This document shows, piece after piece, positions 12,245-36,846 of a DNA stretch of 64,000 bases. The stretch spans positions 13,800 to 77,799 of the forward strand of contig JAGGWD010000015.1 of the NCBI GenBank assembly GCA_021157625.1. Direction: 5' to 3'. Below the pieces are notes generated by a model. It searched no databases and was not told where the DNA came from. It worked only from the letters and a program-made list of their open reading frames with translations. Source of the stretch: a bacterium (lineage in GTDB: Bacteria > Patescibacteriota > Minisyncoccia > Minisyncoccales > JAGGXC01). Position 1 is the stretch's first letter. Every line of letters starts with the position of its first letter. The position numbers and the translations under genes are program-made.

Positions 12245-12250
12245 ATTTTT

Positions 12251-13844: not shown

Positions 13845-13916
13845 GCCCTCGTAGTTGAATGGATACAACGACGGTCTTCGGAACCGTAGGTCCCCGTTCG
13901 AGTCGGGGCGAGGGCA
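13845..13916 (+). tRNA. tRNA-Arg (anticodon UCG)
   Basis: Acceptor gccctcg/cgagggc-a, anticodon stem acggt/accgt, loop ctTCGga, T-arm ccccg-ttcgagt-cgggg. Confidence 0.8.
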
Positions 13917-13927
13917 TTATATCAATT

Positions 13928-14458: not shown

Positions 14459-14470
14459 TATAAAAATTCT

Positions 14471-14543
14471 GCGTCCATAGCTCAATTGGTAGAGCAGGGG
14501 CCTCTTAAGCCCAAGGTTGCAGGTTCGACTCCTGCTGGACGCA
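14471..14543 (+). tRNA. tRNA-Lys (anticodon CUU)
   Basis: Acceptor gcgtcca/tggacgc-a, D-arm gctcaattggtagagc, anticodon loop ctCTTaa, T-arm tgcag-gttcgac-tcctgc (one mismatch). Confidence 0.75.
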
Positions 14544-14570
14544 CAGAAAAACAGATCTTTTCTGTTTTTT
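14544..14570 (+). terminator. Intrinsic terminator after tRNA-Lys
   Basis: cagaaaa-acagatc-ttttctg followed by tttttt. Confidence 0.5.
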
Positions 14571-14597
14571 AATTTTAATGTAAAATAATAAAACAAT

Positions 14598-14864
14598 ATG
14601 CTTACTCCAGAGAAAAAAGAAGAAATAATTAAAAAATATAAAATTCATGACACCGATACTGGATCTCCTGAGGTCCAGATTGCTTTGCTTTCTGAGGAAA
14701 TCAAACAACTTTTGGAACATCTAAAGAAACATCCAAAAGATCTTCATTCCAAAAGAGGGCTACTTCGTATGGTTTCAAAAAGAAAAGCTCTTCTGGATTA
14801 TCTAAAACAAAAAGATCAAAAAAGATATAAGACCCTAATTAAAAAAATCGGACTCAAAAAATAG
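14598..14864 (+). CDS. rpsO: 30S ribosomal protein S15
   Basis: 88 aa; conserved S15 sequence ([15 protein letters not shown]...[16 protein letters not shown]). Confidence 0.9.
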
Positions 14865-14868
14865 AGGT

Positions 14869-15387
14869 ATGATTTCTGTCACGAGACATAAAGAGCAAAG
14901 AATCGGCGTACTGATAGATGTTCAGAATCTTTATCATTCAGCAAAAAATCTCTACGGAGCAAAAGTTAATTTTGGAGAAGTTCTCAAAACAGCCGTTTCA
15001 GGACGAAAACTCATTAGGGCTTTTGCTTATGTAGTCCGAACTAAAACAGGAGAAGAAAGACCATTCTTTGAAGCTCTCACTAAACTAGGCATAGAGACAA
15101 GAGTAAGAGATCTTCAAGAATTTTACGGAGGAATGAAAAAGGCAGACTGGGACGTAGGTATAGTCATTGACGCTATAAGAACAGCTCCTAGCTTGGATGT
15201 AATAGTGCTTTGCTCAGGAGATGGTGATTTTATTCCTCTTGTAGAATATCTAAAAAATCAAGGCAAAAGAGTAGAAATTATTGCTTTTGGAAAGACTACC
15301 TCTTCCAAACTAAGAGAAATCAGCGATGAATTTATAGATTTAGACAAAAATCCTTCTAAATATCTTCTAAAGAAAAAATCAAAATAA
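14869..15387 (+). CDS. NYN/LabA-like (PIN-like) domain protein, predicted RNase
   Basis: 172 aa; RIGVLIDVQNLYHSAK and acidic residues (DGDF) are typical of the NYN/LabA fold. It is inserted between rpsO and pnp. Confidence 0.65.
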   Translation: MISVTRHKEQRIGVLIDVQNLYHSAKNLYGAKVNFGEVLKTAVSGRKLIRAFAYVVRTKTGEERPFFEALTKLGIETRVRDLQEFYGGMKKADWDVGIVIDAIRTAPSLDVIVLCSGDGDFIPLVEYLKNQGKRVEIIAFGKTTSSKLREISDEFIDLDKNPSKYLLKKKSK

Positions 15388-17508: not shown

Positions 17509-19927
17509 AAAATTTCTAAGCAGAGAAAAGATAATGACGATGAAGAAGGACATCGAGATGGCTAAATTGGGCAAATTTCCTGAAAGAGAGAAAGAGAAAT
17601 TGGTAGCCCAAAAGAAAAAGGAAGAAGAACAAAGAAAGATAGAAGAAGAAAGAAAAAGGATGGAAGAGATAAGAAAAAGGAAGGAAGAGCAAAGAAGAAA
17701 AATGGAGGAAGAGCAAAGAAGAAAAATGGAGGAAGAGCAAAGAAGAAAAATGGAGGAGGAATGGATAAGAAAAGAAATGGAAAGAAAGAAAAGAGAAGAA
17801 GAAGAAAGAAAAAGAAGAGAAGAAGAGAGAAAAAAGAGAATTGAGGAAGAAATGAGAAGAATAGAAGAAGAAAGGAAGAAGAGAGAAGAAGAAAGAAGAA
17901 AAAGAGAAGAAGAACGAAAGAAAGAAGAGATGGAAAGAATGAAAGCCTTAGCCCAAAAACCTTTGAAAGAAAGAATAAAAGAAGAAAAGGAAGAGATAGA
18001 GAAAGAGTTATCTCTCATTCAGGCTAAAAAACAACCTCTCCAAGAAAAGAAAAGGGAAATTTTAGAGCGAAAGAATAAAGTAAAAGAGGATCTCAACATT
18101 GCTTTAGAAAACGAGAAAAGGATTGAAGAAGAAGTCTTCAGGCTCCAAAAATTGGAGGAATCCGCTTCCTTTGACGAAAAAGAAAAGATAGAGGCTCAAA
18201 GATGGGAAATGGAAAGAAAAAGAAGAGAAGCAGAAGAAAAAAGATGGGCCATAGAGGATATACTTTATCAAATAGCAGAAGAAGAAGAGAAAATAGAAGA
18301 AGAATGGCAAGAAATTTCTAGTCAGGAAGAAAGATTGAATAAAAAACTAGAACAAATCTCAGCTCAGGAAGAATTGATAAAACTCCAAGAAAAGAAAAAG
18401 AAATTAGAAAATCGCCTTAGAGAACTTTTAGAACAAAGAGAGCCATTAGAGAACAAATTATCTAAAATCTCTGAGAGAAAATCCGAAACAGAAAAGCTTC
18501 TTAATGAAATTCTTGTTAGAGAAAATGAAATAGAGAAAGCAATAGCAGCGCTTGAAGAAAAAGAAAAGAGTACCCCTCTTTCTCCAGAAAAAAGAAGAAT
18601 AGAACAAAAAAGATGGGAAACTGAAAAAGAAAGAGAAAGAATAGAACAAAAAAGATGGCAAATAAATAATGAAATAAAAGCAATAGAAAAGGAAGAGAAA
18701 GAACTAAAGACAAGTTATGAAGACCTCTCAAGAAAGATTGAGATTGTGAAAAAGAGAATTGAAGAGATAGATCTTCTCATAGAAGAAAAGAGAAAGATTA
18801 TTACATCTACAGAAGAATTTGTATCACCAGCCCAAAAGAAAAAGGAAGAAGAACAAAGAAAGATAGAAGAAGAAAGAAAAAGGATGGAAGAGATAAGAAA
18901 AAGGGAGGAAGAGCAAAGAAGAAAAATGGAGGAGGAATGGATAAGAAAAGAAATGGAAAGAAAGAAAAGAGAAGAAGAAGAAAGAAAAAGAAGAGAAGAA
19001 GAGAGAAAAAAGAGAATTGAAGAAGAACTTAGACTTCTAAGAGAGAGAGCTCAAAAAGAAAGAGAAAGGATTATTGTCGAAGAAATCAGAAGAAAAGCAA
19101 AGGAAAGAGCAGAGAAAGAAAAAATGGAAGAGGAAAGGATTCTTAAACCAGAGCAACTACCCCAAAAAAGAGAACTTCCCAAGAAACCTTCCTTGCTCCA
19201 GAAAATAATCATAAGAATATTTGTTCTCCTTTTAATTCTTATTATTGCAGCAACAGCCTTATTCTTCTGGTGGTATTTTAGAGAAAAAGCAAAACCTCCT
19301 CTTCCTCCTCAACAACCGACTCAACCACAAGAAACCATACCCCTCCCTCCTTCTCCTCCTCTCTTTGTAATCACCCAAGCCAGTACAACTATAGAAGCCT
19401 CGAGCTCTCAGGAAATTCCTTCTGCATTAGAAGACTTTCTGAGAAAGCAAGAAATTAAAGAAGGGGATTTCCTTCAATTGCAGGTAAAGAATCTGGAAGC
19501 CAACAAAGAGATTAAGCTTGACGAATTTCTGACAGCTCTTGAAATGAACTCTCTCAAGGATCTTTCTTTATGCTTTGAAGAAAAATTTTCCCTTTTTGTC
19601 TATTCTCAGCCAACAGGAAAAAGATTAGGCTTTGCTATTACTCTCAAAAACAAAGAAGAAATAGAAGAATTAATGAAATCTTGGGAAGACAATGCCCAGC
19701 AAGACTTTCAGAAATTCTTTCTCTTAATGGAACATAAAGGTTCAGCCATGAATCCTGTGTTTAGAGATGCTGTTTACAAAACAAAACATTTTCGTTATCT
19801 TACATATTCAAGAAAAGATTTAGGAATCTGTTATCTGATATCAGAAGATTTCCTCATCTTTACCAGTTCTTATGAAAGCATGAAGAAAATAATTGAATAT
19901 TTAAATGAACAACAAATAAATGAATAA
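17480..19927 (+). CDS. ER/K-rich coiled-coil / single-alpha-helix-like bitopic membrane protein (815 aa)
   Basis: ~530 aa of E/R/K repeats (EEERKRREEERKK...), one TM helix (IIIRIFVLLLILIIAATALFFWWYF), a Pro-rich linker, and a ~190-aa C-terminal globular domain. The start overlaps the pnp 3' end (alternative Met at 17534). Confidence 0.6.
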   Translation: MAQKEDKGDRKFLSREKIMTMKKDIEMAKLGKFPEREKEKLVAQKKKEEEQRKIEEERKRMEEIRKRKEEQRRKMEEEQRRKMEEEQRRKMEEEWIRKEMERKKREEEERKRREEERKKRIEEEMRRIEEERKKREEERRKREEERKKEEMERMKALAQKPLKERIKEEKEEIEKELSLIQAKKQPLQEKKREILERKNKVKEDLNIALENEKRIEEEVFRLQKLEESASFDEKEKIEAQRWEMERKRREAEEKRWAIEDILYQIAEEEEKIEEEWQEISSQEERLNKKLEQISAQEELIKLQEKKKKLENRLRELLEQREPLENKLSKISERKSETEKLLNEILVRENEIEKAIAALEEKEKSTPLSPEKRRIEQKRWETEKERERIEQKRWQINNEIKAIEKEEKELKTSYEDLSRKIEIVKKRIEEIDLLIEEKRKIITSTEEFVSPAQKKKEEEQRKIEEERKRMEEIRKREEEQRRKMEEEWIRKEMERKKREEEERKRREEERKKRIEEELRLLRERAQKERERIIVEEIRRKAKERAEKEKMEEERILKPEQLPQKRELPKKPSLLQKIIIRIFVLLLILIIAATALFFWWYFREKAKPPLPPQQPTQPQETIPLPPSPPLFVITQASTTIEASSSQEIPSALEDFLRKQEIKEGDFLQLQVKNLEANKEIKLDEFLTALEMNSLKDLSLCFEEKFSLFVYSQPTGKRLGFAITLKNKEEIEELMKSWEDNAQQDFQKFFLLMEHKGSAMNPVFRDAVYKTKHFRYLTYSRKDLGICYLISEDFLIFTSSYESMKKIIEYLNEQQINE
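17606..17860. repeat. Intragenic direct repeat copy 1 (~200 bp shared with copy 2; includes a 24-bp x3 tandem at 17684-17755)
   Basis: gcccaaaagaaaaaggaagaagaacaaagaaagatagaag... is nearly nucleotide-identical to 18830-19030. Copy 1 carries two extra 24-bp units (gaagagcaaagaagaaaaatggag), giving EEQRRKME x3. Confidence 0.8.
18830..19030. repeat. Intragenic direct repeat copy 2
   Basis: Near-identical to 17606-17860 minus the two extra 24-bp units. Confidence 0.8.
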
Positions 19928-24476: not shown

Positions 24477-25556
24477 TTATCGGGCAAATGGATTTCGAGG
24501 AGGAGAACCTTGAGAACTATAAAGTCCAAAGTGAAGATGGCAACCAGCAGATCCAGCAGGAATAGTTTTTCCAGAATGTCCTATCAATCCAATAAGCTCT
24601 CCTTGCGAAACCTCCTGGCCGACTACTACCAGAATTTTTTGAAGATGTCCATAATGTGTTATCAGCCCATTTGGATGAAGGATTCTAATATAATTTCCTG
24701 CTCCACGATTATAACCATATTTTACCTTCAGCACCTTTCCTCCGGCAGCAGCAAAAACAGGTTTTCCGCAACTATTACCTACATTAGCAAAATCAACAGC
24801 ATTATACCAATGAAGACCTTGAGTAACTCGATAAGGAGAGGAAACTGGGACGATAAAATAACTCGAAGCAACTGGAATTTGACTAAAGGAATAGCTGTAA
24901 CTCCTTACTTGAACAGGCTTAACTCCGCCGGGAATAACCAGAATATCTCCTACATAAATATCTCCCTCTTCTGAAAGATCATTAAAAGCAATAATATCCT
25001 CAATTTTTGCTTTATAAGTACGAGCAATCTCGCTTAAAGTATCACCTTTCTTTACATGGTGAATTACCCCTGAGACCGGAAGGATAATTAATTTCTGACC
25101 AGGACGAATAATAGAGTTTCTTCCTAAATCATTTGCCCATAAAATGGTATTTAAAGAAATACCAAAATCAGCAGCAATAGAACCAAGAGTATCGCCCGGT
25201 TGAACCACATATTCTGTAATTTCCTTTTTCTGAATTTCCTCTCCCGACAATGCAGCTAAGGTCTTGGAAGAAAAAATCTGGAGACAGGAAACTCCAGCTA
25301 AGCTGTTATTCTGGATAAAAGTAAGTTCAGGCGATTCGATATAAGATCTATCTTGAGAATTAATAAATAACTTCTGCTGCTTGAGAGAAACTGCCTGAAT
25401 TCTTTGATCTCCAAAAGAAAAACTCAACCAAAAACCTACAGAAATAACTAAAACCCCTATTAAAAAAACTAAAAATTTGCTCCACAAAGATTTTAACATC
25501 TTGTCTTCTAAATTAGTAAATCTATTCTGAAAGTCAAGTAATTTCTCCACAGCCAT
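24477..25556 (-). CDS. LysM (x2) + M23 family metallopeptidase (cell-wall hydrolase)
   Basis: Two LysM motifs (GDTLGSIAADFGISLNTILWAN; GDTLSEIARTYKAKIEDIIAFN) and an M23 catalytic region (HxxxD...HLHF). Confidence 0.8.
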   Translation of the reverse strand: MAVEKLLDFQNRFTNLEDKMLKSLWSKFLVFLIGVLVISVGFWLSFSFGDQRIQAVSLKQQKLFINSQDRSYIESPELTFIQNNSLAGVSCLQIFSSKTLAALSGEEIQKKEITEYVVQPGDTLGSIAADFGISLNTILWANDLGRNSIIRPGQKLIILPVSGVIHHVKKGDTLSEIARTYKAKIEDIIAFNDLSEEGDIYVGDILVIPGGVKPVQVRSYSYSFSQIPVASSYFIVPVSSPYRVTQGLHWYNAVDFANVGNSCGKPVFAAAGGKVLKVKYGYNRGAGNYIRILHPNGLITHYGHLQKILVVVGQEVSQGELIGLIGHSGKTIPAGSAGCHLHFGLYSSQGSPPRNPFAR

Positions 25557-25575: not shown

Positions 25576-28086
25576 ATGAAATTTATTATAAAATTAAAAA
25601 AAATAAGTATAACACCCATGAAAAAACAAAAAATTTATCTATCCCTTCTTGCGATAATAATATTGATCTCTCTTTTTATTATATTTTTAGCGACAACAAA
25701 AAATCAGCAAGTAGTAAAAGCATCCCCAGGGATATACCTAGAATTCAGATGCGACGAAAACAATAACAAGTGTGGCGACAGAATTCTGGTGAGAGCATGT
25801 GTTGGAACAGGAGGTGAAAAAGTATGTACTCCAGGTTTTGACAAAATAGACGATCTTATCCAGGCAATAAAGGAAAAATGGGGATGGGAAGAACCTGAAA
25901 ATTGGAGCGATCTCCCAAGTCTTTTGAAGTGTAAAGACTATCAAATTTGTACTAGATTAGCCCCTCCTCCTACTGAATGGAGTAAAATACCTGCTTATTG
26001 CAAATGTAAAGGAAAATGTATAGAAAAGCCTAAAAGAGCAGGAACCGAAGAATGCCCCGAATGTGGAATTAGAGACGGAATTGATTTTGTGAATCCTGAA
26101 AGCGGCCCCATCTTCTTACCTGCCCATTTTGATTGGGAAAAGGTAGAGGGAGCAAAATCATATCGATGGAAAGCTGTCCCTGTTGCAATCCCAGGTGTTA
26201 CATATGTACCAAGTACTAACACAAAAACCATAGTCTCTGATGTTATAAGAGATATCTCACACCCTCGCAATCCTCCTACCGAATATACACCACCCTCTTG
26301 TTCTCTTCAATCAGGAAACGCATATTATTGGAAAGTTCAGCCATGTTGTGATCTTGCTGGACTCAATTGTAAACCATGGGCAGAGCTTGATGCCTGGCCT
26401 TTTACTACAAGTCTAGCCCCTGAACCAGCTACTCCTTCTGATCCTGACTGGAATAACACTACCAGTGAAGCAGAAACGCAAGACATTCCTGTAATTCTGG
26501 ACTGGTGTGACCCTCCCGATAACACAGTTATGTTGGGCGAAGGCAGAAAAGGAGAATATTATTATGACCAAGGACGAGGAAAGAATATAACCAGTTATAA
26601 ATTAAAACTTTACCACATAAACAGTGAAAATCAGGAAGAGTGTCATCCTTTATTAGTTAAAGATGGAAAATGTATACCAAAAGAAATAATCCCTGGTTCT
26701 AATTGGCCATGGGATAAACTCTACTCTCTTTGGGAAGACTTCACAGGAACATATTTAATTGAGAACCAACGATATAGATGGCAAGTGGCTACTTGCTATT
26801 TATCGGAAGGAAAGGAATACTGTAGTGACTATAGCCAGAAATGGGGCTTTTCTGTAGGAACAAATATTAGAGAAACAGAATTGATAGCTCCTCCAAATAA
26901 TATCAATGATGCTATAGGTCTTCCTGTGACTTTTAAATGGAACAGAGCAATTGGAATCAATTCTTATAATTACAATATTGGAGGCCATACTGGTACTACC
27001 TCAGCAAACATCATAACTTTTGATTGGCCTGATTTTGAGCTCGATACAGTCTATAATTGGACAATCCAACCCTGTACTGACTATGCAGCTCAAAATTGCA
27101 AAGATTGGCTTGATCCTTGGCAATTCAAAATCACTGGTGCTCCTCCTGTTTTGCTTGCTCCTACAGGAACAGAAGCGCTTTCAGCAGTAATTCCTGTAAA
27201 ACTTGATTGGAAAGATGTCTCAGGAGCAGGCTCCTATGAGTATAGAATATTAGGAGGAATAAGCCCAGTAAAAGGAGTGGTGAATGTATCGGAAGTTGTA
27301 GTAGATTATCCTGATCTGAAACTAAACCATGTCTATACTTGGCAGGTTAGAACATGCGCCCATAAAGATGGAAGCGTATGCGGAAAGTGGAGCAATCTTG
27401 GCGCTTTCACTACTTTCTCAATGGGATTTCCTGTTCTCATAAAACCTTCTCTTAATGCAAAAATTGAAGAACCGGAAATACGGTTCTCTTGGAAACCGTT
27501 GAAAGGTGCTAAGTATTACGAATACGTTATAAAGAACAAGAACACAGGAGAGGAAATCTTTCATAAGATTATAAATTCAGATTCCATCACACACTATTCC
27601 TACGAGTTTCCTGAAGTAGGAGAGTATGAATGGAGAGTAAGAGGATGTCTTGATTCAAGCTGCGGAACGGGAGGTGCAGGACCATGGAGTAATTGGCGAA
27701 CTTTCAACTTAGCACTTACAGCGCCTCCACAAAGACAAGGAGGATTAGTTCCCTGTGGCCGTCTCTATGATGATCCCAACACACCATGGGATGAGAGAGA
27801 ACAATGCCAGATTAAACATCTCTTCTTGCTTATTAGAAATATCTTGGATTTTCTTCTCTGGAAGTTAGCAACCATTCTCTTAATACTCGCATTGGTAGCA
27901 GTTGGGGTTATGCTCTACATCTCTAAAGGAGAAACAACTATTATCTTGCAAGTAAAATCTGCTCTCAAATGGATAATCATAGGATATGGTCTAATACTTC
28001 TCGCTTGGTCTATTGTCAACTTCCTCTTAGCCCTTGCTGGATTTCGGTTTCAAATCTTTGGACATTGGTGGGAACTACCTTTCTAA
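25576..28086 (+). CDS. Large (836 aa) secreted Cys/Trp-rich FN3-like repeat protein ending in a pilin-like hydrophobic hairpin
   Basis: N-terminal signal/anchor; at least 6 repeated ~95-aa modules with FxWxxVxGAxxYxY and Y.W.V..C motifs (FN3-like with paired Cys). The C-terminus (VPCGR...CQIKH then 2 TM separated by KGETTIILQVKS) is homologous to 13928..14458. Confidence 0.6.
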   Translation: MKFIIKLKKISITPMKKQKIYLSLLAIIILISLFIIFLATTKNQQVVKASPGIYLEFRCDENNNKCGDRILVRACVGTGGEKVCTPGFDKIDDLIQAIKEKWGWEEPENWSDLPSLLKCKDYQICTRLAPPPTEWSKIPAYCKCKGKCIEKPKRAGTEECPECGIRDGIDFVNPESGPIFLPAHFDWEKVEGAKSYRWKAVPVAIPGVTYVPSTNTKTIVSDVIRDISHPRNPPTEYTPPSCSLQSGNAYYWKVQPCCDLAGLNCKPWAELDAWPFTTSLAPEPATPSDPDWNNTTSEAETQDIPVILDWCDPPDNTVMLGEGRKGEYYYDQGRGKNITSYKLKLYHINSENQEECHPLLVKDGKCIPKEIIPGSNWPWDKLYSLWEDFTGTYLIENQRYRWQVATCYLSEGKEYCSDYSQKWGFSVGTNIRETELIAPPNNINDAIGLPVTFKWNRAIGINSYNYNIGGHTGTTSANIITFDWPDFELDTVYNWTIQPCTDYAAQNCKDWLDPWQFKITGAPPVLLAPTGTEALSAVIPVKLDWKDVSGAGSYEYRILGGISPVKGVVNVSEVVVDYPDLKLNHVYTWQVRTCAHKDGSVCGKWSNLGAFTTFSMGFPVLIKPSLNAKIEEPEIRFSWKPLKGAKYYEYVIKNKNTGEEIFHKIINSDSITHYSYEFPEVGEYEWRVRGCLDSSCGTGGAGPWSNWRTFNLALTAPPQRQGGLVPCGRLYDDPNTPWDEREQCQIKHLFLLIRNILDFLLWKLATILLILALVAVGVMLYISKGETTIILQVKSALKWIIIGYGLILLAWSIVNFLLALAGFRFQIFGHWWELPF

Positions 28087-28101: not shown

Positions 28102-28764
28102 ATGAAGAGAATATGGAAGTTATTAAAAATTATTCTCTTATTTCTTCTGGTAATAGGAATATTGATTTCTGTGGGCTTGTATTATGCGAGTCAAAAATTA
28201 GAAAAGATAAAAAACTCAATAGAGCCAGAGACTTTATCCCAGATTAATTTCCTAATAAGCAAAGAAGAGCAGAAAAATCTCGAACATAAGGAATTTGTAA
28301 CTCCTGACGGAAAATTAAAGCTCAAATATCTTTCTAATTGGAGAGAGATAAAAGATCCAGCAACGTTAGAAACAAGCCTTCCAAAAGAAATTAAGGAAAA
28401 TTACGGACTTGAGATTTTGTTTCTTGCAAGAAGATTAACGGGTAAAGGATTAAGCCAATTGGAGATATGCAAAGGAACATTGGAAGCTGAGTCTGTCAAA
28501 GAATTTATCGAAGCAACAAAAGCCTTATATCAAAAAGAAGGTTGGGAAATGGAAATTATTGATTCTTCAAAACCAAAAGATAATGAATATATTTTTGAGA
28601 TAAGGTACAGTAAGCCAAATCGGCATTCTTTTAGATCAAAGGAGAAAATAGTTTTCTTAGAAGATACAGCCTATATAGTAACCTTTTTCACAGCAGAAAG
28701 AGATTGGAATAATTTCCTAAAAGAGAGTAACGAAATAATGGATTCCGTAGAGATCATTGATTAA
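28102..28764 (+). CDS. N-terminally membrane-anchored hypothetical protein (220 aa); possible VirB8-like position
   Basis: A single N-terminal TM followed by a ~190-aa extracytoplasmic domain. The role is inferred from its location within the T4SS-like locus only. Confidence 0.35.
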   Translation: MKRIWKLLKIILLFLLVIGILISVGLYYASQKLEKIKNSIEPETLSQINFLISKEEQKNLEHKEFVTPDGKLKLKYLSNWREIKDPATLETSLPKEIKENYGLEILFLARRLTGKGLSQLEICKGTLEAESVKEFIEATKALYQKEGWEMEIIDSSKPKDNEYIFEIRYSKPNRHSFRSKEKIVFLEDTAYIVTFFTAERDWNNFLKESNEIMDSVEIID

Positions 28765-29905
28765 TTTAAAAATGGGTTGGTTTGTGTTAAAATTAAATAA
28801 TATGAAAAAATATAGAAGACAACTACTTACTGTCATTTTTATATCAATATTGATTAGTTTTCTTTCTTTTGGTTCTCAGGTAAAAGGATTAGAATTAAAC
28901 TGGCCTACTGCGCCCGGAGGAAAGGAACTAAGCGATGAAAGTACGCTAGTTGATTTCGTGGATTATGCTTATCGATGGGGAATATTTCTTGGAGGATTAG
29001 CTGCTTTTATTGCTCTCATTATTGCCGGATTTCAATATCTAACTTCGGTCGGAGATCCTGCTAAAATGAAGGAGGCAAGAGAAAGAATTATTGCTGCTAT
29101 TGCCGGTTTGGTTCTTTTACTTTCTACTTTTATTATCCTAAATACTTTGAATCCTGATTTAACAACCCTTTCTCCTCCTACAAGTGATATTAGCGGTATG
29201 CCAACTGGAAACTGGCAAAACCCTGATTGGGATAAACCATGTGAGTTTGTAAAAATCTATAAAGAAAAAAATTATAAAGGTCATATCCTCACAATAGGGA
29301 AAGGAGGGAAATTTGATCTAGAAGAATGTATTCTTACAGGAATAGGTATTCCCATAATACCAGGGGTATGGACATGGTACATTAGCGAAACCCCAATAAA
29401 ATCTGTTTTGATGAAGGGAGCATGCCAATTGAATTTATATGAAGAAGACAAGTGTAAAGGAAATTTCACAGGAATAGGAAAAAGCATGCCGAATCTTGAT
29501 TGGGTTTCCCAAAGTCACATTTATTCAATCAAAGCAGTAGACATTTCTCCTCCTATTCCGCCAAAAGTCAAAACTGTAACATTTCCTCCTCCTACTCCTC
29601 TGAAACAACCCGATGGAACATACAAGGCAACTTTAAAAGGAGCACTGCTTGATTTCGGAAGGACCGACAGAGTAAGAGTACATTTTGAATATGGGAAAAA
29701 CAAACTCTATCTTGATAAAACAGCTCCGCCAGACCCTGAACAGTTTCAAGAGATCTTTGTTCAAGATATACCTGCTGGAGGAATACCGTTTTCTGTAGAG
29801 ATTGAAGGATTAGCTACCAACACTACTTATTTCTGGAGAGCCATAGCAGCAAATGAAGCAGGGCCTGCTTATGGAACTACTTCCAGTTTTACTACAGGAC
29901 CATAA
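28757..29905 (+). CDS. N-terminal pilin-like hydrophobic hairpin module (VirB2/TrbC-like topology) fused to a C-terminal FN3-like extracellular domain
   Basis: Signal peptide (alternative start at 28802, MKKYRRQ...), then helix-loop-helix FIALIIAGFQYLTSVG-DPAKMKEARERI-IAAIAGLVLLLSTFIILNTL. The C-terminus ends with the classic FN3 strand motif YFWRAIAANEAGPAYGTTSSFTT. Confidence 0.55.
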   Translation: MINLKMGWFVLKLNNMKKYRRQLLTVIFISILISFLSFGSQVKGLELNWPTAPGGKELSDESTLVDFVDYAYRWGIFLGGLAAFIALIIAGFQYLTSVGDPAKMKEARERIIAAIAGLVLLLSTFIILNTLNPDLTTLSPPTSDISGMPTGNWQNPDWDKPCEFVKIYKEKNYKGHILTIGKGGKFDLEECILTGIGIPIIPGVWTWYISETPIKSVLMKGACQLNLYEEDKCKGNFTGIGKSMPNLDWVSQSHIYSIKAVDISPPIPPKVKTVTFPPPTPLKQPDGTYKATLKGALLDFGRTDRVRVHFEYGKNKLYLDKTAPPDPEQFQEIFVQDIPAGGIPFSVEIEGLATNTTYFWRAIAANEAGPAYGTTSSFTTGP

Positions 29906-29921
29906 AGAAGATTTTAAATCA

Positions 29922-32162
29922 ATGTCATCCCAAAAAACCAAAATATTCTTATTTATTCTCCTGTTAATCTCTTTCTCTCTCACTTGTCCAAAACCGACAC
30001 ACGCTATTATTGGGACGGGAATTTTTGATTGGGCAGACTCGGTCCTTAATGCTCTGGATTCTTTTGATCAAGCTATTCTCTCTTTCCTTTTGAAGCTTGT
30101 AATCTTTGCTTTCCTTTCAGCCGGATTTGCTGTTCTTTCTGCCTATCTACTGGAATGGGCAGTAGACCTTCCTTTATATTTAAATAATCCTGCTGTGCTT
30201 GCAGGTTTTCATTTCATAGTTGGGCTCGTAAATCTTTTTTTTGTTCTTGCTATTGTTTTTATTGCTTTAGCCTATATTCTAAGAATAGAAACATTTCAAC
30301 TCAAGAAGGTTTTTGCTCGTTTAATTCTTGCAATATTATTAGTGAACTTTAGTCTCCTTATAGTTGGCGCTTTTGTTGACATCGCACAATTTTTTATGAA
30401 TACCCTGCTTAGCGCCTATGGAAAGGATTTTGCTAACACCGCTCTTCTTCCTTTAAGAAGTTCTTTGGGAGCTATTACAAATGTAATTATTGCTACAATT
30501 ACAGGATATGTAGCCTCCGCCTTTACTGTATTTGGTGCTCCTTTCTCGCTTGTTTATTTAGGCTTGATGTTTTGGCAAGGAAACTTACTGGGAAATGTAT
30601 TTTCAATAGTAGTACTGATTCTATTCAATCTTGTAATGGGAGCAATCTTTTTTGTTTTTACTGTGCTGTTTATAATAAGAATCGCTGCTCTTTGGATTTT
30701 AGGAATATTTGCTCCTCTGGGAGTCTTTTGTTTTGTTTTCGATCAGACCAAAAAATACGGATGGGAATGGCTAAAAGCAACGTTTCAGTGGGCTACTCTT
30801 GGAATAGTTGCTTTCTTTCTGTTAGGGCTTATCCTATCTATTTTTAGTGCTGCTTTTCTCAGTAGACCCGGAAATATTGATATATCCCCAATCGCAGGCG
30901 TACCCAGCTTCCAATTACCTCCCTCAATTTATAATTATTTGTTCTTGATTATTTTCTTAATAGTCGCTTTCTACGGAAGCTTAAGATATGTTCCAGTAGG
31001 CGCCCAAGAAGTAATTGGAGTAATGAAGGCACAATTAAAAGCTTTAGGAGGTGTAGCAGGAATAACTAGTTTAATGAAAAAAGGAGTAGGTGGCGTCGCA
31101 AGAAGAGTAGTTCCTGAGAAAGTAAGAAGAAAAGCAGAGCAATTAGCAACTGCTCCAGGCCTTCCCACAAGAGAGGAGTTCGAAAAGATGTCACGAAGAG
31201 AAAAACTAAAAAGACTAGTCATTTCTCCTTACGCTAAGAGAGCGTTAGGCAGAGCAATAACATCTGTAACTGTTAAAGCCGATGAAGGTGTTTATACAGA
31301 AACAAAGAAAAAATTCAAAGGAAAAGATGTTCAAACTAAAGTAGAATGGTTCCACAAGGAAAGCGATTTCGTAAAGAAGGCTGCCATTCTTGCATCGTTG
31401 ATTGAAGAAAAACAACTCAAAGATGCAATGGATAAAGGACGGTTTGGAACTAACGCTCTTCAATATAGTGGGGCAGAATTAAATGCAGCTTTGAGAAAAT
31501 TAGTAAGAATGGGAAAGGAAGATGAGTGGAAAGCAATGCTTAGAGCATTCAAGGACAAAAAAGACGAATTTTATAACATTCTTAGAGAAGAAAAAACGCT
31601 TACAGAAAAAGACCTTTCAAAGAAAGGATACAAAAACATTACTGAATACATAGCAGGAGAAACTAAGAAAGCAGATCAAATAAAACAGTTAAATAAAGAT
31701 TGGTTTGATGACGATGAATTTGCAGACGCTATTCACAAATTTTGGGGAGGCCATCAAGTTGGAGAAGCCGCAAAAGCTTTCGGTCGGAAATTCACTGATA
31801 CTTTTAATGCTCACGCCAAACCACTTGACTGGTATTATGAGATAGACCCTTCAACTGGAAAAATGAGAAATGCTCAACTACCTCGATATCTAGCAAGCAC
31901 AGGAGCAATGAATGCAGGGCTTTATCCAATTGAAGGTGGAGAAGATAGAAAGAAACTAAATGAATTATTTAGAAAAGGTTTAGAGAAAGAAAAAGCATGG
32001 ACAAGCGCACCTCCTTCCTTTGAAGAAGTAGAAAAAGAAGAGAAAAAAGAACCCCCCTCTACTCCTCCACGAGGAAGCAGAGGTTTAGGAGGAAGAAAAC
32101 CACCAAGAGGAAGTAGAGGCCTTGAAGGAGGAAAGCCTCCAAGAGGAAGCAGAGGAGTATAA
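29922..32162 (+). CDS. VirB6/TrbL-like polytopic membrane protein with a large hydrophilic C-terminal domain and terminal Pro/Arg/Gly repeats
   Basis: Start set at the Met after the upstream stop; signal-like N-terminus, ~7 TM helices (aa 60-390), a ~350-aa C-terminal soluble region, and a 3x tandem PPRGSRGLxGG(K) at the end. Confidence 0.5.
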   Translation: MSSQKTKIFLFILLLISFSLTCPKPTHAIIGTGIFDWADSVLNALDSFDQAILSFLLKLVIFAFLSAGFAVLSAYLLEWAVDLPLYLNNPAVLAGFHFIVGLVNLFFVLAIVFIALAYILRIETFQLKKVFARLILAILLVNFSLLIVGAFVDIAQFFMNTLLSAYGKDFANTALLPLRSSLGAITNVIIATITGYVASAFTVFGAPFSLVYLGLMFWQGNLLGNVFSIVVLILFNLVMGAIFFVFTVLFIIRIAALWILGIFAPLGVFCFVFDQTKKYGWEWLKATFQWATLGIVAFFLLGLILSIFSAAFLSRPGNIDISPIAGVPSFQLPPSIYNYLFLIIFLIVAFYGSLRYVPVGAQEVIGVMKAQLKALGGVAGITSLMKKGVGGVARRVVPEKVRRKAEQLATAPGLPTREEFEKMSRREKLKRLVISPYAKRALGRAITSVTVKADEGVYTETKKKFKGKDVQTKVEWFHKESDFVKKAAILASLIEEKQLKDAMDKGRFGTNALQYSGAELNAALRKLVRMGKEDEWKAMLRAFKDKKDEFYNILREEKTLTEKDLSKKGYKNITEYIAGETKKADQIKQLNKDWFDDDEFADAIHKFWGGHQVGEAAKAFGRKFTDTFNAHAKPLDWYYEIDPSTGKMRNAQLPRYLASTGAMNAGLYPIEGGEDRKKLNELFRKGLEKEKAWTSAPPSFEEVEKEEKKEPPSTPPRGSRGLGGRKPPRGSRGLEGGKPPRGSRGV

Positions 32163-32189
32163 AAAAAGAGGAAGTTGGCTTCCTCATAT

Positions 32190-33956: not shown

Positions 33957-34364
33957 ATGGAATTCACAGTTCCTCAATTTATTGAACACGAAGCAAAGGT
34001 AATAGGACCTTTCACTTTTAAACAATTTATTATAGTCGCCATTGCAGGAATAATCTGTTTTGTGGCTTATTACAAAACTCCTCTTTGGGTCTTTATCCCT
34101 GTCTGTATTATTGTAGGAGGAGGAGCTCTTGCTATTGTCTTTGTAAAGATTCAAGGTCGCTCTCCTTTGGTAATGGTAGCCAATTTTATAAGCTTTATCT
34201 TTTCTCCCAAAGTATATTTATGGAAGAGAAAGATAGTACCTATAAGAGTAACTCCAAGAAAGCCGCTTAAAGAAGAAGAAAAAGTCAAAGAACAGATGCC
34301 AAAAAGAGTCAAAAAAAGTAGATTAAGAGAACTATCAATAAAAATAGAGACAACAAGAAGATAA
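33957..34364 (+). CDS. Small 2-TM protein, VirB3-like candidate
   Basis: 135 aa with two adjacent TM helices near the N-terminus and a basic C-terminal tail. It lies immediately upstream of the VirB4-like genes (VirB3-VirB4 synteny). Confidence 0.4.
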   Translation: MEFTVPQFIEHEAKVIGPFTFKQFIIVAIAGIICFVAYYKTPLWVFIPVCIIVGGGALAIVFVKIQGRSPLVMVANFISFIFSPKVYLWKRKIVPIRVTPRKPLKEEEKVKEQMPKRVKKSRLRELSIKIETTRR

Positions 34365-34366: not shown

Positions 34367-35002
34367 ATGGCCCAAATACCAACACAAAAATTTTTAGAGA
34401 TAGAAGATATTAGAGAAGGAATAGTTATTCTAAAAAACAAAACATTGAGAGGCGTTTTAATAGTATCTTCTTTAAATTTTGCCCTAAAATCAGAAGAAGA
34501 ACAAAATGCTACTATTTTTCAATTTCAAGAATTTCTAAACTCTTTGGATTTTCCTCTTCAAATCGTGGTGCAATCAAGAAGATTAAACATCACTGGTTAT
34601 CTAGATAAGTTAAAGAGTCTTGAAGAAAGACAAGAAAATGAATTATTGAAAGCTCAAACTGCTGAATACAGAAAATTTATAAAAGATCTGATAGCCAAAG
34701 CCTCAATTATGCAAAAGAATTTCTTTGTAGTGGTTCCTTTTATACCTTTCGGCGCAGAGGCTACCAAAAAAGGCTTCTTTGCTAAACCAACACTTCCTAC
34801 TTTGACAGAAGAAGTTTTTCAACGAGCAAAAGTTCAGCTCTGGCAAAGAATGGAGTTCATTATACTTGGTCTAAGAAGATGTGGTCTTCAAGCTCAACCA
34901 TTAGATAGTCCTGAGTTAATTGAACTTTTCTGGAGCATTTATAATCCCGAAGAAGCTGAATTCGGATATTATCCCGAGATTCCTCCTGAACTTATAAGAT
35001 AA
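34367..35002 (+). CDS. Hypothetical soluble protein (211 aa); possibly the detached N-terminal domain of VirB4
   Basis: Tightly linked, only 17 nt upstream of the VirB4-like ORF; 211 + 608 aa is close to the usual VirB4 length. Stop codons occur in all frames between the ORFs, so it is not a simple frameshift. Confidence 0.4.
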   Translation: MAQIPTQKFLEIEDIREGIVILKNKTLRGVLIVSSLNFALKSEEEQNATIFQFQEFLNSLDFPLQIVVQSRRLNITGYLDKLKSLEERQENELLKAQTAEYRKFIKDLIAKASIMQKNFFVVVPFIPFGAEATKKGFFAKPTLPTLTEEVFQRAKVQLWQRMEFIILGLRRCGLQAQPLDSPELIELFWSIYNPEEAEFGYYPEIPPELIR

Positions 35003-35019: not shown

Positions 35020-36846
35020 ATGCCTTTTCCTTTCTTTAAAAGAAAATCAAGCATACCAGAATTAGAGAAAATCGCTCAAGAAACTATTTTAGATGTAAAA
35101 GATATTATCGCTCCTTCTTCCATTATCGTAGGAGATGAGTCTATAAAATTGGGAGGGCGATTAGCAAAAAGCTTCTTTATTTTCTCTTATCCCCGCTATC
35201 TTAGTACAGGATGGCTTTCTCCTGTAATCAATCTAGATACTCCAATGGATATTGCTATCTTTATTCATCCTCTTGAAACAGGGCCATTACTCAAAAAACT
35301 AAGAAGACGAGTAACAGAGGTACAGGCAGAAATTGCTGAAAGAGAAGAGAAGGGACTAATAAGAGATCCGGCTCTTGAAACTGCTTATCGGGATCTAGAA
35401 ACCTTGAGAGAAAGACTCCAAACTGCTCAAGAAAGAATGGCAAATCTTGGGGTATACATCACTATTTATGGAGAAAATGAAAAACAATTAAAAGAAATCG
35501 AAACAACAATTCGTTCAATCCTTGAAGCAAGGCTTATATATATAAAACCCAATACTTACAAACAAAGAGAAGGTTTCATTTCTGCTCTTCCCTATGGAAT
35601 GGATAAGATCCAAAGGTATACTTTAATGAACACTTCTCCTATATCAAGCATTTTTCCGTTTATTTCTTTTGATTTAAGTAGTAACGAAGGAATTCTTTAT
35701 GGAATTAATAAACACAACAACTCTCTCATCCTCTTTGATAGATTTTCTCTTGAGAATGCCAACGAAGTTGTCTTTGGAAAAGCGGGAGGAGGTAAAAGCT
35801 ATGCTGTGAAATTAGAAATTCTAAGACTGCTAATGCAGGGAGTAGATGTGATAGTAATCGATCCTGAAAACGAATATGAGTTTTTAGCTGATGCCGTGGG
35901 CGGTTCGTTCTTTAACATATCTCTCTCTTCCCAAAACCATATCAATCCTTTTGATTTGCCAGTTGTAAGAGAAGATGAAAAACCTGAAGATGTCTTAAGA
36001 GCAAATGTAATAAACCTAGTAGGACTCCTCCGAATAATGCTAGGAGGGTTAACTCCAGAAGAAGACGCTATAATAGACAGAGCTATTACTGAAACCTATG
36101 CTGCCAGAGATATAACCCCAGAAACAAATCCTGAAACCTGGCACGCCAATATTCCTTTAATGGAGGATTTAGAATCTGTTCTGGAAGGAATGGAAGGAAC
36201 AGAGTCTCTGGTAAGAAGATTAAGAAAATTCACAAAAGGCACTTACTCTCAATTTTTTAATCAACCTACAAACATCTCTATGGAAAAAAGTTTTGTCTCT
36301 TTTGGAATAAGAGACATGGAAGAGGAATTACGTCCAATGGCAATGTTTGTAATTATGCGCTATATCTGGAACAAAGTAAGATCAGAATTGAAAAAAAGAG
36401 TTCTTGTAGTAGATGAAGCATGGTGGATAATGCAGACAGAAGATGGCGCCTCTTTCCTATATGGTCTTGCAAAGAGAGCAAGAAAATACTGGTTAGGAGT
36501 GACTACCGTAACTCAAGACGTTGGTGATTTTATGAAATCCACTTATGGCCAACCAATTATCACTAATTCTTCTATTCAACTACTTCTAAAACAAAGCCCT
36601 GCCACTATAGATGTAGTCCAGAAAGCGTTTAATTTAACCGAACAAGAAAAGTATCTATTGCTTGAATCAGCAGTAGGAGAGGGATTGTTTTTTGCTGGGC
36701 CCAAGCATGTGGCAATTAAAATAGTAGCTTCTTATGCTGAAGATCAATTCATTACCACTTCCCCAGAACAAGTTCTCAAAATTAAAAAAGCCAAAGAAAA
36801 ATTAGCTAAAGAAAAACCTCTATCTGAGGAAGAAAAACTTTATTAA
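35020..36846 (+). CDS. VirB4/TrbE/CagE-family type IV secretion ATPase (608 aa)
   Basis: Walker A GKAGGGKSY, Walker B VLVVDEAWW, and N-terminal conserved YPRYLSTGWLSPV, as in monoderm VirB4 homologues. Confidence 0.75.
   Translation: MPFPFFKRKSSIPELEKIAQETILDVKDIIAPSSIIVGDESIKLGGRLAKSFFIFSYPRYLSTGWLSPVINLDTPMDIAIFIHPLETGPLLKKLRRRVTEVQAEIAEREEKGLIRDPALETAYRDLETLRERLQTAQERMANLGVYITIYGENEKQLKEIETTIRSILEARLIYIKPNTYKQREGFISALPYGMDKIQRYTLMNTSPISSIFPFISFDLSSNEGILYGINKHNNSLILFDRFSLENANEVVFGKAGGGKSYAVKLEILRLLMQGVDVIVIDPENEYEFLADAVGGSFFNISLSSQNHINPFDLPVVREDEKPEDVLRANVINLVGLLRIMLGGLTPEEDAIIDRAITETYAARDITPETNPETWHANIPLMEDLESVLEGMEGTESLVRRLRKFTKGTYSQFFNQPTNISMEKSFVSFGIRDMEEELRPMAMFVIMRYIWNKVRSELKKRVLVVDEAWWIMQTEDGASFLYGLAKRARKYWLGVTTVTQDVGDFMKSTYGQPIITNSSIQLLLKQSPATIDVVQKAFNLTEQEKYLLLESAVGEGLFFAGPKHVAIKIVASYAEDQFITTSPEQVLKIKKAKEKLAKEKPLSEEEKLY

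What the first reader, a model, noticed from the sequence alone, without database searches (positions are those of the whole stretch)
25576..28086. 836-aa FN3-like repeat protein ending in a pilin-like membrane hairpin
The protein carries at least six ~95-aa modules with FN3-like strand motifs (FxWxxVxGAxxYxY; Y.W.V..C) plus conserved Cys pairs. Its last ~115 aa form a VPCGR...CQIKH motif followed by two TM helices separated by a short charged loop. That hairpin is the topology of VirB2/TrbC pilins, but here it is a C-terminal appendage of a huge ectodomain. A pilin-type module fused to an adhesin-like passenger is unusual. It suggests either a pilus-tip/shaft adhesin or a hairpin membrane anchor family not yet described.
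Basis: seen in the sequence. Interest (0 to 1): 0.7.

Follow-up and report, generated by a model that had tools for sequence, protein, structure and literature searches.

The report
Type IV secretion pilin carrying an FN3 stalk
This gene from an ultra-small (Patescibacteria/CPR) bacterium encodes a type IV secretion "pilin" membrane hairpin with a roughly 670-residue rod of five fibronectin-like domains attached in front of it. Proteins like this may be how these epibionts' essential secretion machine touches the host cell, but databases list them only as hypothetical proteins.

Summary
The ORF 25576..28086 (+) is real, 836 aa, or 822 aa from Met15. It has a Sec-type signal, a variable Cys-rich tip, five (not six) disulfide-type FN3-like modules, a conserved GLVPCG…C…H motif, and a C-terminal two-helix hairpin.

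The hairpin is not an undescribed anchor. It matches Pfam PF18895 T4SS_pilin, the Patescibacteria VirB2-like pilin family, and more weakly TrbC/VirB2.

The gene opens a conserved chromosomal T4SS locus near dnaA. That locus holds a LysM/M23 hydrolase, this gene, a 220-aa protein, a second pilin with a C-terminal ectodomain, VirB6-like, PrgI/VirB3, TraC-like and VirB4.

An exhaustive profile search found 145 cluster representatives at E≤1e-30. Most of those listed are 600–1668 aa, and every match ends at or within a few residues of the C-terminus. Most apparently complete ones have five modules. Others have none or one, and one carries lectin/PKD domains. Short relatives place the signal peptide directly before GLVPCG.

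Best reading: a modular VirB2-type pilin that displays an adhesin-like stalk outside the cell, either on a T4SS pilus or at its base. Polymerisation is inferred, not shown. The pilin family and the T4SS locus are known. I found no description of this fusion architecture, so I rate it a new variant of a known kind.

The parts
25576..28086 (+). Gene for the modular pilin. 836 aa from the first ATG; the likely true start is Met15 at nt 25618, giving 822 aa.
   Evidence: ORF list. Only 19 bp separate it from the divergent M23 gene. Near-identical NCBI proteins HDJ30368.1 and MCD6178070.1 are 822 aa and named 'hypothetical protein'.
25624..25722 (+). N-terminal Sec-type signal: hydrophobic segment within aa 17-44, then VVKA|SPG, a plausible signal-peptidase I site.
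   Evidence: Hydropathy. Family members show analogous sites after the hydrophobic stretch, such as EVEA|SPG, EVKA|AN and LAQA|TV. Cleavage itself is inferred.
25723..26076 (+). Cys-rich distal 'tip' region, aa 50-167, with 11 Cys. It is the most variable part of the protein.
   Evidence: Cys positions. Mean identity to seven homologues is 21%, with 33% gaps. No Pfam or PDB sequence match. The AlphaFold2 model is of low to moderate confidence here.
26077..26418 (+). FN3-like module 1, aa 168-281.
   Evidence: Module alignment. Cross-detected by orthologue-only profiles of M3, M4 and M5.
26419..26886 (+). FN3-like module 2, aa 282-437, with a long insertion.
   Evidence: Its C-terminal half is detected by the other modules' profiles. 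pLDDT is low in the insertion.
26887..27189 (+). FN3-like module 3, aa 438-538.
   Evidence: pLDDT about 80-91.
27190..27459 (+). FN3-like module 4, aa 539-628.
   Evidence: pLDDT about 83-91.
27460..27723 (+). FN3-like module 5, aa 629-716.
   Evidence: Pfam PF25788 Ig_Rha78A_N, E=2.7e-8, 34.5 bits against a cut-off of 27.4. Also.
27724..27816 (+). Linker plus the conserved extracellular junction motif GGLVPCGRxYDDPxTPWxERExCQIKH, aa 717-747, containing Cys727 and Cys744.
   Evidence: Most conserved region, 61% mean identity. Family consensus over 125 long members. In short pilins the same motif follows the signal peptide directly.
27817..28083 (+). VirB2-type pilin hairpin, aa 748-836. Helix 1 has an amphipathic start and a TM core at aa 764-781. 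A positively charged segment, aa 782-798, connects it to helix 2, which contains the second TM. The tail FGHWWELPF is conserved.
   Evidence: PF18895 at 29.6 bits and TrbC at E=7.7e-4. AlphaFold2 pLDDT 85.9. Hydropathy and charge.
24477..25556 (-). LysM + peptidase M23 cell-wall hydrolase, divergent neighbour. It could play the VirB1 role.
   Evidence: Pfam. Its position is conserved in related loci, where the catalytic domain is sometimes CHAP. The VirB1-like role is inferred.
28102..28764 (+). 220-aa protein with an N-terminal hydrophobic stretch; conserved operon member of unknown role.
   Evidence: only weak Pfam hits. Synteny.
28757..29905 (+). Second modular pilin in the mirror arrangement: signal peptide and PF18895 hairpin first, then a roughly 250-aa C-terminal extension. 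The likely start is MKKYRRQ at nt 28802.
   Evidence: PF18895 E=1.1e-8 at aa 77-130; weak FN3-like Pur_ac_phosph_N hit at aa 310-380. NCBIfam NF045849 pilin-like, E=3.3e-6. Synteny.
29853..32162 (+). Polytopic VirB6/TrbL-like membrane protein, 769 aa.
   Evidence: No Pfam hit for the window's copy. Its orthologue in L001 (phmmer E=1e-196) has a weak precomputed PF04610 TrbL hit.
33957..34364 (+). PrgI / VirB3-like protein.
   Evidence: PF12666, E=1e-7.
34367..35002 (+). TraC-like 211-aa T4SS component.
   Evidence: Orthologues carry PF26593 TraC-like. phmmer E of 1e-77 to 1e-111 across loci.
35020..36846 (+). VirB4-type ATPase.
   Evidence: PF19044 E=1.7e-26, plus AAA_10, DUF87 and TraC_F_IV.
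13928..14458 (+). Short stand-alone PF18895 pilin, 176 aa from Met24 of the ORF; candidate major subunit. Its position upstream of PNPase is conserved.
   Evidence: PF18895 at 31.4 bits. Family HMM E=3e-41. Synteny.

Best explanation
The protein is a modular VirB2-type pilin of the chromosomal type IV secretion system of a Patescibacteria bacterium, probably of the Paceibacteria/Parcubacteria group.

**Proposed mechanism.**
1. A Sec signal exports the N-terminal part.
2. The ectodomain ends up outside the cell. It consists of a variable Cys-rich tip and five disulfide-stapled FN3 modules. At about 3.5 nm per FN3 domain this gives a rod of roughly 20 nm.
3. The C-terminal PF18895 hairpin inserts with both ends outside and its positively charged loop in the cytoplasm. 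That is the topology of VirB2/TraA before assembly.
4. In solved conjugative pili both pilin termini face outward. The VirB4/VirB6 machinery could therefore extract the hairpin and build it into the T4SS pilus or its base, together with the short pilin and the mirror-image pilin encoded nearby.
5. The FN3 stalk and its tip would then project from the filament as the host-contact (adhesin) element.

**Shown:** the domain identities, the two-helix hairpin, the T4SS locus, the family-wide architecture, and the pattern of conservation.

**Inferred:** signal cleavage, topology, disulfides, incorporation into a pilus, and the adhesive role.
For: **Pilin identity of the hairpin.**
- PF18895 scores 29.6 bits (cut-off 26.6) and TrbC E=7.7e-4 on the isolated C-terminal domain.
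- 62 of 65 relatives match PF18895 and 20 of 65 match TrbC.
- Stand-alone pilins of 146-150 aa are 43-53% identical to the hairpin domain. In P0011 the signal peptide directly precedes GLVPCG. In P0097 and P0139 only about 3-12 further residues intervene.
- AlphaFold2 predicts two helices of 34 and 37 residues, pLDDT 85.9. The connecting loop is positively charged.

**T4SS context.** The gene opens a locus holding a hydrolase, a 220-aa protein, a second pilin, VirB6-like, PrgI, TraC-like and VirB4, next to yidC and dnaA. The same gene order appears in 16 related loci.

**The ectodomain is a passenger on a constrained pilin.**
- 145 representatives reach E≤1e-30. Most of those listed are 600-1668 aa, and the pilin match is always C-terminal.
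- 88 of 102 apparently complete long members have five modules. Forms with 0, 1 and 6 modules exist.
- One member, P0214, carries ConA-like lectin, PKD and Big domains instead.
- The same locus slot holds genes of 192-1003 aa.

**Conservation pattern.** Mean identity is 21% for the tip, 35-40% for the FN3 modules, 47% for the hairpin and 61% for the junction motif. The distance from the Cys of VPCG to the C-terminus is 110 aa in 67 of 125 members. I read this as more constraint than a plain membrane anchor would need.

**Topology consistency.** The neighbouring pilin carries its extension C-terminal to the hairpin. That fits both termini being outside. All 28 Cys lie in the predicted extracellular part.

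[quoted passage not shown] In one Saccharibacteria species the T4SS, with its predicted pilins, is essential for epibiotic growth (PMC10633639). A survey of 3,035 Patescibacteria genomes detected no adhesins such as PrgB (PMC12102498).
Against: - No PF18895 protein has been shown experimentally to polymerise. 'Pilin' is a prediction for the whole family.
- The full-length protein scores 24.4 bits on PF18895, below Pfam's cut-off.
- A roughly 75-kDa passenger on every subunit would have to pass the cell wall during pilus growth. Nothing here shows that this is possible.
- The N-terminal hydrophobic segment is long, about 22 residues. It might stay as a second anchor, which would hinder extraction into a filament.
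Confidence: 0.55

Rival explanations
1. Static anchored adhesin or spacer. The pilin-derived hairpin serves only to hold the protein in the cytoplasmic membrane and dock it to the T4SS platform (VirB6/VirB3). It never polymerises. The five FN3 modules act as a rod of about 20 nm that carries the tip through the wall and surface layer. The role would resemble that of surface adhesins of Gram-positive conjugation systems.
For: - Monoderm T4SS classes generally lack pili and rely on surface adhesins (PMC12102498).
- The five-module number is strongly conserved, in 88 of 102 members. That would suit a fixed spacer length.
- The ectodomain is large.
- A separate short pilin is available as the filament subunit.
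- No tool result shows polymerisation.
Against: - The hairpin and the extracellular junction motif are the most conserved parts, at 47-61% identity.
- They are shared with stand-alone pilins of 146-150 aa at 43-53% identity.
- The helices are 34-37 residues long, longer than a plain membrane span needs.
- Family members with zero or one module exist in the same subfamily and the same locus slot. The hairpin therefore has a role of its own.
Confidence: 0.3
2. Pro-protein. The ectodomain is cleaved off just before GLVPCG. This releases an ordinary short pilin for assembly and a soluble or wall-bound FN3 protein.
For: - In P0011 the mature N-terminus is predicted to begin at (A/G)GLVPCG directly after the signal peptide.
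- Gly at position -4 relative to the Cys is 88% conserved in the fusions.
Against: - The fusions have no conserved AxA or other recognisable cleavage motif upstream of GLVPCG. Positions -20 to -6 are variable and resemble the Pro-rich linkers between modules.
- No hydrophobic segment precedes the site, as signal peptidase I would need.
- The window encodes no dedicated protease next to the gene other than the M23 wall hydrolase.
Confidence: 0.08
3. The C-terminal helices are an ordinary stop-transfer anchor that resembles pilins by chance.
For: Hydrophobic helices give low-complexity similarity. The full-length PF18895 score is below the cut-off, and the TrbC hit is below its threshold.
Against: - A family profile finds the domain at E=9e-42 in the window.
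- 145 representatives reach E≤1e-30.
- The soluble GLVPCG…C…H motif is shared with bona fide PF18895 proteins.
- The position in the T4SS locus is invariant.
Confidence: 0.02

Closest known systems
Patescibacteria VirB2-like pilins (Pfam PF18895 T4SS_pilin). Examples are the essential pilin array of Ca. Southlakia epibionticum ML1 and the pilins near virB4/dnaA surveyed in PMC12102498.
   Same: Same hairpin domain, same GLVPCG…C motif, and the same chromosomal T4SS locus next to dnaA.
   Different: Described members are treated as small proteins, and their lengths are not tabulated. Those retrieved here by the word-index search are 87-201 aa. This protein has about 670 residues of ectodomain between the signal peptide and the mature pilin N-terminus. 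Precomputed Pfam annotation misses the pilin domain in P0001-P0009 and in the contig copies of P0002 and P0007.
TrbC/VirB2/TraA conjugative pilins of diderm bacteria (PF04956; F, pED208 and T pili).
   Same: A two-helix hydrophobic hairpin with a basic connecting loop, a Sec signal, and a gene inside a VirB4/VirB3/VirB6 cluster. There is weak profile similarity: E=7.7e-4 for this protein, and down to 3.8e-7 in relatives. Solved pili have both pilin termini on the outside (PMC5018250), which is compatible with terminal passengers.
   Different: The score is below the family threshold. No structural match could be demonstrated. The host is a monoderm. The ectodomain is very large. In my literature searches I found no natural VirB2 with a large passenger domain.
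Modular type IV pilins (type IV pili, not T4SS), in which a functional module is grafted onto a pilin module, for example Streptococcus sanguinis PilB and PilC. This is cited from my own knowledge and was not checked here.
   Same: The same design principle: a polymerisation module plus a displayed adhesive module.
   Different: An unrelated pilin fold and assembly machine. There the module sits C-terminal to the pilin domain. Here it sits N-terminal, and the neighbouring gene has it C-terminal.
VirB5-type pilus-tip proteins and the Gram-positive T4SS adhesin PrgB.
   Same: The proposed role: target-cell contact for a T4SS.
   Different: No sequence or fold relation. VirB5 is helical (PMC12624023), whereas this ectodomain is all-β FN3. 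PrgB-type adhesins are sortase-anchored, and this protein has no LPXTG motif.
Mycoplasma ICE 'Mbov_0395 family pilin-like conjugal transfer protein' (NCBIfam NF045849).
   Same: A VirB2-like hairpin protein in a monoderm T4SS. The neighbouring 382-aa pilin matches it at E=3.3e-6.
   Different: This protein matches it only at E=0.05-0.39. That family is small, with a profile of 80 positions.

Membership tests
Pfam PF18895 T4SS_pilin (Patescibacteria VirB2-like pilins) | Match to the family HMM at or above the curated cut-off of 26.6 bits | tested here: met
   The C-terminal 119 aa alone score 29.6 bits, E=7.1e-7, covering profile positions 6-71 of 71. The full-length protein scores 24.4 bits, just below the cut-off. 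62 of 65 relatives match.
Pfam PF18895 T4SS_pilin (Patescibacteria VirB2-like pilins) | Two long hydrophobic helices joined by a short basic loop | tested here: met
   Hydropathy segments at aa 749-787 and 795-825. AlphaFold2 helices at aa 746-782 and 787-820, pLDDT 85.9. The connecting segment has net charge +2.
Pfam PF18895 T4SS_pilin (Patescibacteria VirB2-like pilins) | Encoded in a T4SS locus with VirB4, VirB3/PrgI and VirB6-like genes | tested here: met
   The same order is seen in L001-L014.
Pfam PF18895 T4SS_pilin (Patescibacteria VirB2-like pilins) | Small protein whose signal peptide is followed directly by the mature pilin (GLVPCG…) | tested here: not met
   About 670 residues (Cys-rich region plus five FN3 modules) lie between the signal and GLVPCG. 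The relatives retrieved by the word-index search are 87-201 aa. This is the feature that makes the protein a variant.
TrbC/VirB2 pilins (PF04956) | Match to the family HMM at or above the cut-off of 27.9 bits | tested here: inconclusive
   20.1 bits, E=7.7e-4, for the isolated domain, aligned to profile positions 41-98 of 98. 20 of 65 relatives match, best E 3.8e-7. The link holds at family level, but this protein is below threshold.
TrbC/VirB2 pilins (PF04956) | Fold and packing like solved VirB2/TraA pilins | tested here: inconclusive
TrbC/VirB2 pilins (PF04956) | Polymerises with phospholipid into an extracellular pilus | not testable with these tools
   Needs multimer modelling with lipid, or experiment.
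Fibronectin type III / Ig-like β-sandwich repeats (including PF25788 Ig_Rha78A_N) | HMM match and a β-sandwich fold in tandem | tested here: met
   PF25788 at 34.5 bits (cut-off 27.4) on module 5. All-β model with pLDDT 80-91 for modules 3-5. Foldseek hits to gp130, leptin receptor, fibronectin FN3 7-10 and GhpA at E 6e-13 to 1e-11. Five homologous copies.
Sortase-anchored Gram-positive T4SS adhesins (PrgB type) | C-terminal LPXTG sorting signal and PrgB-type adhesin domains | tested here: not met
   No LPXTG-like motif near the C-terminus. No such Pfam domains.
VirB5 pilus-tip proteins | Helical VirB5/TraC fold or family HMM match | tested here: not met
   No Pfam match. The ectodomain model is all-β.

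The most novel reading that the evidence does not exclude
T4SS filaments of many Patescibacteria are not bare VirB2 tubes. They would be 'bottle-brush' or sheathed heteropolymers built from modular pilins. One pilin carries an N-terminal FN3 stalk of about 20 nm (this gene). Another carries a C-terminal ectodomain (the gene at 28757..29905). Together with a short pilin they would form the wall-spanning, host-contacting conduit of a secretion system that is essential for the epibiotic lifestyle. The variable Cys-rich tip would set host range.
Probability: 0.2. Interest if true: 0.85.

Novelty: new variant of a known kind. Interest (0 to 1): 0.6.

Why it matters
**For Patescibacteria biology.** The T4SS is conserved, sits next to the replication origin, and is essential for epibiotic growth in the one species tested (PMC10633639). 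What it contacts on the host, and how, is unknown. The genome survey found no adhesins (PMC12102498). A widespread class of VirB2-type pilins with adhesin-like ectodomains is a concrete candidate for the host-contact element. The variable tip is a candidate determinant of host specificity.

**For T4SS structural biology.** VirB2 pilins are regarded as tiny, tightly packed subunits. Natural versions with 600-1500-residue passengers at either terminus would test how much the assembly pathway tolerates.

**For annotation.** These proteins fall just below Pfam's full-sequence cut-off because of their length. They are therefore deposited as 'hypothetical protein', and domain-level rescoring would recover them.

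Tried and rejected
- **Self-BLAST of the protein** reported no internal repeats. The modules are too divergent, so profile methods were needed.
- **Word-index homology search with the 119-aa C-terminus alone** found one protein. A profile of ten hairpins found 66, nearly all short pilins or contig-truncated fragments, and did not list the long fusions. Only the exhaustive search revealed the fusion family.
- **The search for related loci with the full-length alignment** failed for lack of a conserved stretch. The hairpin alignment worked.
- **PDB sequence searches.** The hairpin profile reached VirB2 only at non-significant E-values. Its top hits were photosystem I PsaF signal regions sharing 'AGL(T/V)PCG', E about 0.5, which I rate as chance. 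The ectodomain had no PDB sequence match.
- **A sixth FN3 module in aa 50-167** is rejected.
- **A sortase or LPXTG anchor** is rejected.
- **A conserved cleavage motif before GLVPCG** was not found.
- **A mobile-element or conjugative context** is rejected. Pfam scans of every ORF of 300 aa or more gave no relaxase or coupling-protein family. Two of those ORFs, the 769-aa VirB6-like protein and the 815-aa charged protein, gave no Pfam match at all. The neighbours are housekeeping genes (PNPase, dnaA, dnaN, yidC, tRNAs).
- **Literature searches** for ectodomain-fused or modular VirB2 pilins returned nothing. The survey's supplementary table lists VirB2 hits without lengths.
Full report
**Observation.** The ORF at 25576..28086 (+) exists and encodes 836 aa. 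The divergent LysM/M23 gene starts only 19 bp upstream, and near-identical NCBI proteins are 822 aa. Met15 at nt 25618 is therefore the likelier start.

Hydropathy gives three hydrophobic segments: aa 17-44, 749-787 and 795-825. All 28 cysteines lie between aa 59 and 744.

Alignment of the internal modules shows five copies: aa 168-281, 282-437, 438-538, 539-628 and 629-716. Each module profile detects the other four in the query. The M4 profile, for example, scores M1 at 38.6, M3 at 33.3, M5 at 31.8 and M2 at 12.8 bits. No copy is found in aa 50-167. The count is therefore five, not 'at least six', and aa 50-167 is a separate Cys-rich region.

The C-terminal features are as described: VPCGR, CQIKH, and two helices separated by a short charged turn.

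**What the parts are.** Pfam places the last ~70 residues in PF18895 T4SS_pilin. The isolated C-terminal 119 aa score 29.6 bits against a cut-off of 26.6. The full-length protein scores 24.4 bits, just below it. The isolated domain also hits PF04956 TrbC/VirB2 at E=7.7e-4, below that family's threshold. Of 65 relatives of the hairpin, 62 match PF18895 and 20 match TrbC, best E 3.8e-7.

AlphaFold2 on the 119-aa domain with a 65-sequence alignment gives mean pLDDT 85.9. It predicts helices at domain positions 29-65 and 70-103, which are aa 746-782 and 787-820 of the protein. The connecting segment ISKGETTIILQVKSALK has net charge +2 and the hydrophobic cores are uncharged. By the positive-inside rule this puts the loop in the cytoplasm and both ends outside.

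Module 5 matches PF25788 Ig_Rha78A_N at 34.5 bits against a cut-off of 27.4. The full-length model is all-β from aa ~170 to 716, with pLDDT 80-91 for modules 3-5. Foldseek matches it to tandem FN3 arrays at E of 6e-13 to 1e-11: gp130, leptin receptor, fibronectin repeats 7-10, and the bacterial grappling-hook protein GhpA.

**Context.** The gene opens a T4SS locus with this order:
- LysM+M23 hydrolase (−)
- this gene
- a 220-aa protein
- a 382-aa protein with a PF18895 hairpin at aa 77-130 followed by a ~250-aa extension
- a 769-aa polytopic VirB6/TrbL-like protein
- a terminator-like hairpin scored on both strands
- an SPFH protein (−)
- a 149-aa protein
- PrgI/VirB3
- a TraC-like protein
- a VirB4 ATPase
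- jag and yidC (−), then dnaA and dnaN

 A third, short pilin of 176 aa lies at 13928..14458.

Every ORF of 300 aa or more was scanned against Pfam. None matched a coupling-protein or relaxase family, although two of them (the 769-aa and 815-aa proteins) had no match at all. The remaining genes are housekeeping genes.

The same gene order recurs around homologues in metagenomic contigs. It also recurs in 13 GTDB genomes labelled Paceibacterales, Nealsonbacteria, Minisyncoccales, Parcubacteria or Patescibacteria. This is the chromosomal, origin-proximal Patescibacteria T4SS described by Quiñonero-Coronel et al. (PMC12102498). Its predicted pilins are essential in Ca. Southlakia epibionticum (PMC10633639).

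**How common the architecture is.**
- The word-index search with the full protein found nine homologues with the same architecture, eight of them 673-1003 aa and one a 602-aa fragment lacking its N-terminus. It also found a Bacteroidota-type FN3 protein that matches only the modules.
- A profile of ten hairpins searched exhaustively against 1.84 billion representatives gave 8,959 hits at E≤1e-3 and 145 at E≤1e-30. Most of the 150 listed are 600-1668 aa, and the match ends at or within a few residues of the C-terminus in all of them.
- Among 102 apparently complete long members, 88 have exactly five modules and 7 have six. Members with one module (P0110, P0114 and P0169, about 245 aa) and with none (P0097 and P0139, about 150 aa) also exist.
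- One long member, P0214, carries a different passenger: an ALK/LTK glycine-rich domain, a ConA-like lectin domain, PKD and Big_7.
- The same locus slot holds genes of 192-1003 aa in different genomes, and one genome has two tandem copies.
- More distant relatives are ordinary pilins of about 110-200 aa. In many, the signal peptide ends directly before (A/G)GLVPCG.

The ectodomain is thus an insertion between the signal peptide and the mature pilin N-terminus.

**Conservation and the junction.** Mean identity to seven homologues is 21% for the Cys-rich tip, 35-40% for the FN3 modules, 47% for the hairpin and 61% for the junction motif. Across 125 long members the consensus is GG-L-V-P-C-G-R-x-Y-D-N/D-P-x-T-P-W-N-E-R-E-x-C-Q-I-K-H. 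The residues upstream are variable and Pro-rich, like the linkers between modules. There is no AxA-type site and no preceding hydrophobic stretch. The distance from that Cys to the C-terminus is 110 aa in 67 of 125 members. I therefore see no evidence that the ectodomain is cleaved off. The N-termini of family members look like ordinary Sec signals with AxA-like sites.

**Mechanism.** *Shown:* a PF18895 hairpin, a T4SS locus, an FN3 ectodomain on the N-terminal side, a mirror-image paralogue with its extension on the C-terminal side, and stronger constraint on the hairpin and junction than on the passenger.

*From established knowledge:* VirB2-type pilins sit in the membrane and are extracted with a phospholipid by the VirB4-powered machine. 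They are added at a VirB6 platform (PMC12624023). In the assembled F-like pilus both termini are on the outside and the inter-helix loop lines the lumen (PMC5018250).

*Inferred:* the FN3 stalk is displayed on the outside, either on a filament containing the short pilin or at the membrane next to the machine. It would serve host contact, with the variable tip as the binding end. At about 3.5 nm per FN3 domain (my own knowledge), five modules plus the tip would be about 20 nm long. A simple volume estimate from the published pilus dimensions (87 Å wide, pentameric layers) suggests that even full decoration is not sterically excluded. That estimate is mine and is not a tool result.

**Novelty.** The pilin family, the T4SS locus and its position near dnaA are all published. 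I found no paper describing VirB2-type pilins with large ectodomains. The survey paper states that no adhesins such as PrgB were detected, and its table of VirB2 hits gives no lengths. Public annotation calls close relatives 'hypothetical protein'. Precomputed Pfam annotation shows no pilin domain for P0001-P0009 or for the contig copies of P0002 and P0007. I therefore rate this a new variant of a known kind. It is of moderate to good interest for T4SS mechanism and for how Patescibacteria engage their hosts.

Noticed in passing
window 28757..29905 (+): The second pilin of the operon has the mirror architecture. A signal peptide and PF18895 hairpin (aa 77-130) come first, followed by a ~250-aa C-terminal extension with a weak FN3-like hit (Pur_ac_phosph_N, E=0.0011). 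It also matches the Mycoplasma ICE pilin-like family NF045849 at E=3.3e-6. The proteins that best match it in related loci are 124-505 aa long.
   Followed up: partly
window 13928..14458 (+): A short stand-alone PF18895 pilin (31.4 bits), 33% identical to the fusion's hairpin domain. It lies beside a tRNA cluster and about 11 kb upstream of the T4SS operon. Its position upstream of PNPase is conserved in L001, L003, L007, L011 and L014.
   Followed up: partly
window 17480..19927 (+): An 815-aa protein with no Pfam match. About 590 residues are extremely charged E/R/K-rich repeats (…EEERKRREEERKK…), followed by one TM helix and a ~190-aa C-terminal domain. It is conserved in synteny between PNPase and a DksA/TraR zinc-finger gene upstream of the T4SS locus.
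   Followed up: no
window 32031..32159 (+): The VirB6-like protein ends in a short tandem repeat, PPRGSRG(L/V)(G/E)GGK, about three copies.
   Followed up: no
window 32168..32185: A perfect 7-bp-stem hairpin, scored as terminator-like on both strands, lies between the convergent VirB6-like and SPFH/Band 7 genes. It splits the T4SS genes into two transcription units, 25.6-32.2 kb and 33.4-36.8 kb.
   Followed up: no
window 25576 vs 25618: The annotated first ATG leaves only 19 bp to the divergent M23 gene. Met15 gives the 822-aa form found in NCBI entries HDJ30368.1 and MCD6178070.1.
   Followed up: partly
L012 5138..10315: A Minisyncoccales genome has two tandem fusion-pilin genes, of 930 and 795 aa, in the slot where this window has one.
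   Followed up: no
window 823..2568 (-), 47596..48891 (-), 46247..47419 (-): Two T2SSE-family ATPases are present: one with an MshEN domain (PilB-like) and one shorter (PilT-like). A protein with two Lamin Tail Domain stretches is also present. The genome therefore also encodes type IV pilus machinery, separate from the T4SS.
   Followed up: no
window ~12000..16000: Cumulative GC skew reaches its minimum near 12-14 kb. Gene orientation flips from minus to plus there, next to a cluster of six tRNA genes. This is about 25 kb from dnaA at 38864.
   Followed up: no
PDB search with alignment A3: The signal-peptide/'AGLVPCG' start of the short pilins weakly resembles the signal/'AGLTPCGESKE' start of photosystem I subunit PsaF (E about 0.5). 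I consider this chance.
   Followed up: no
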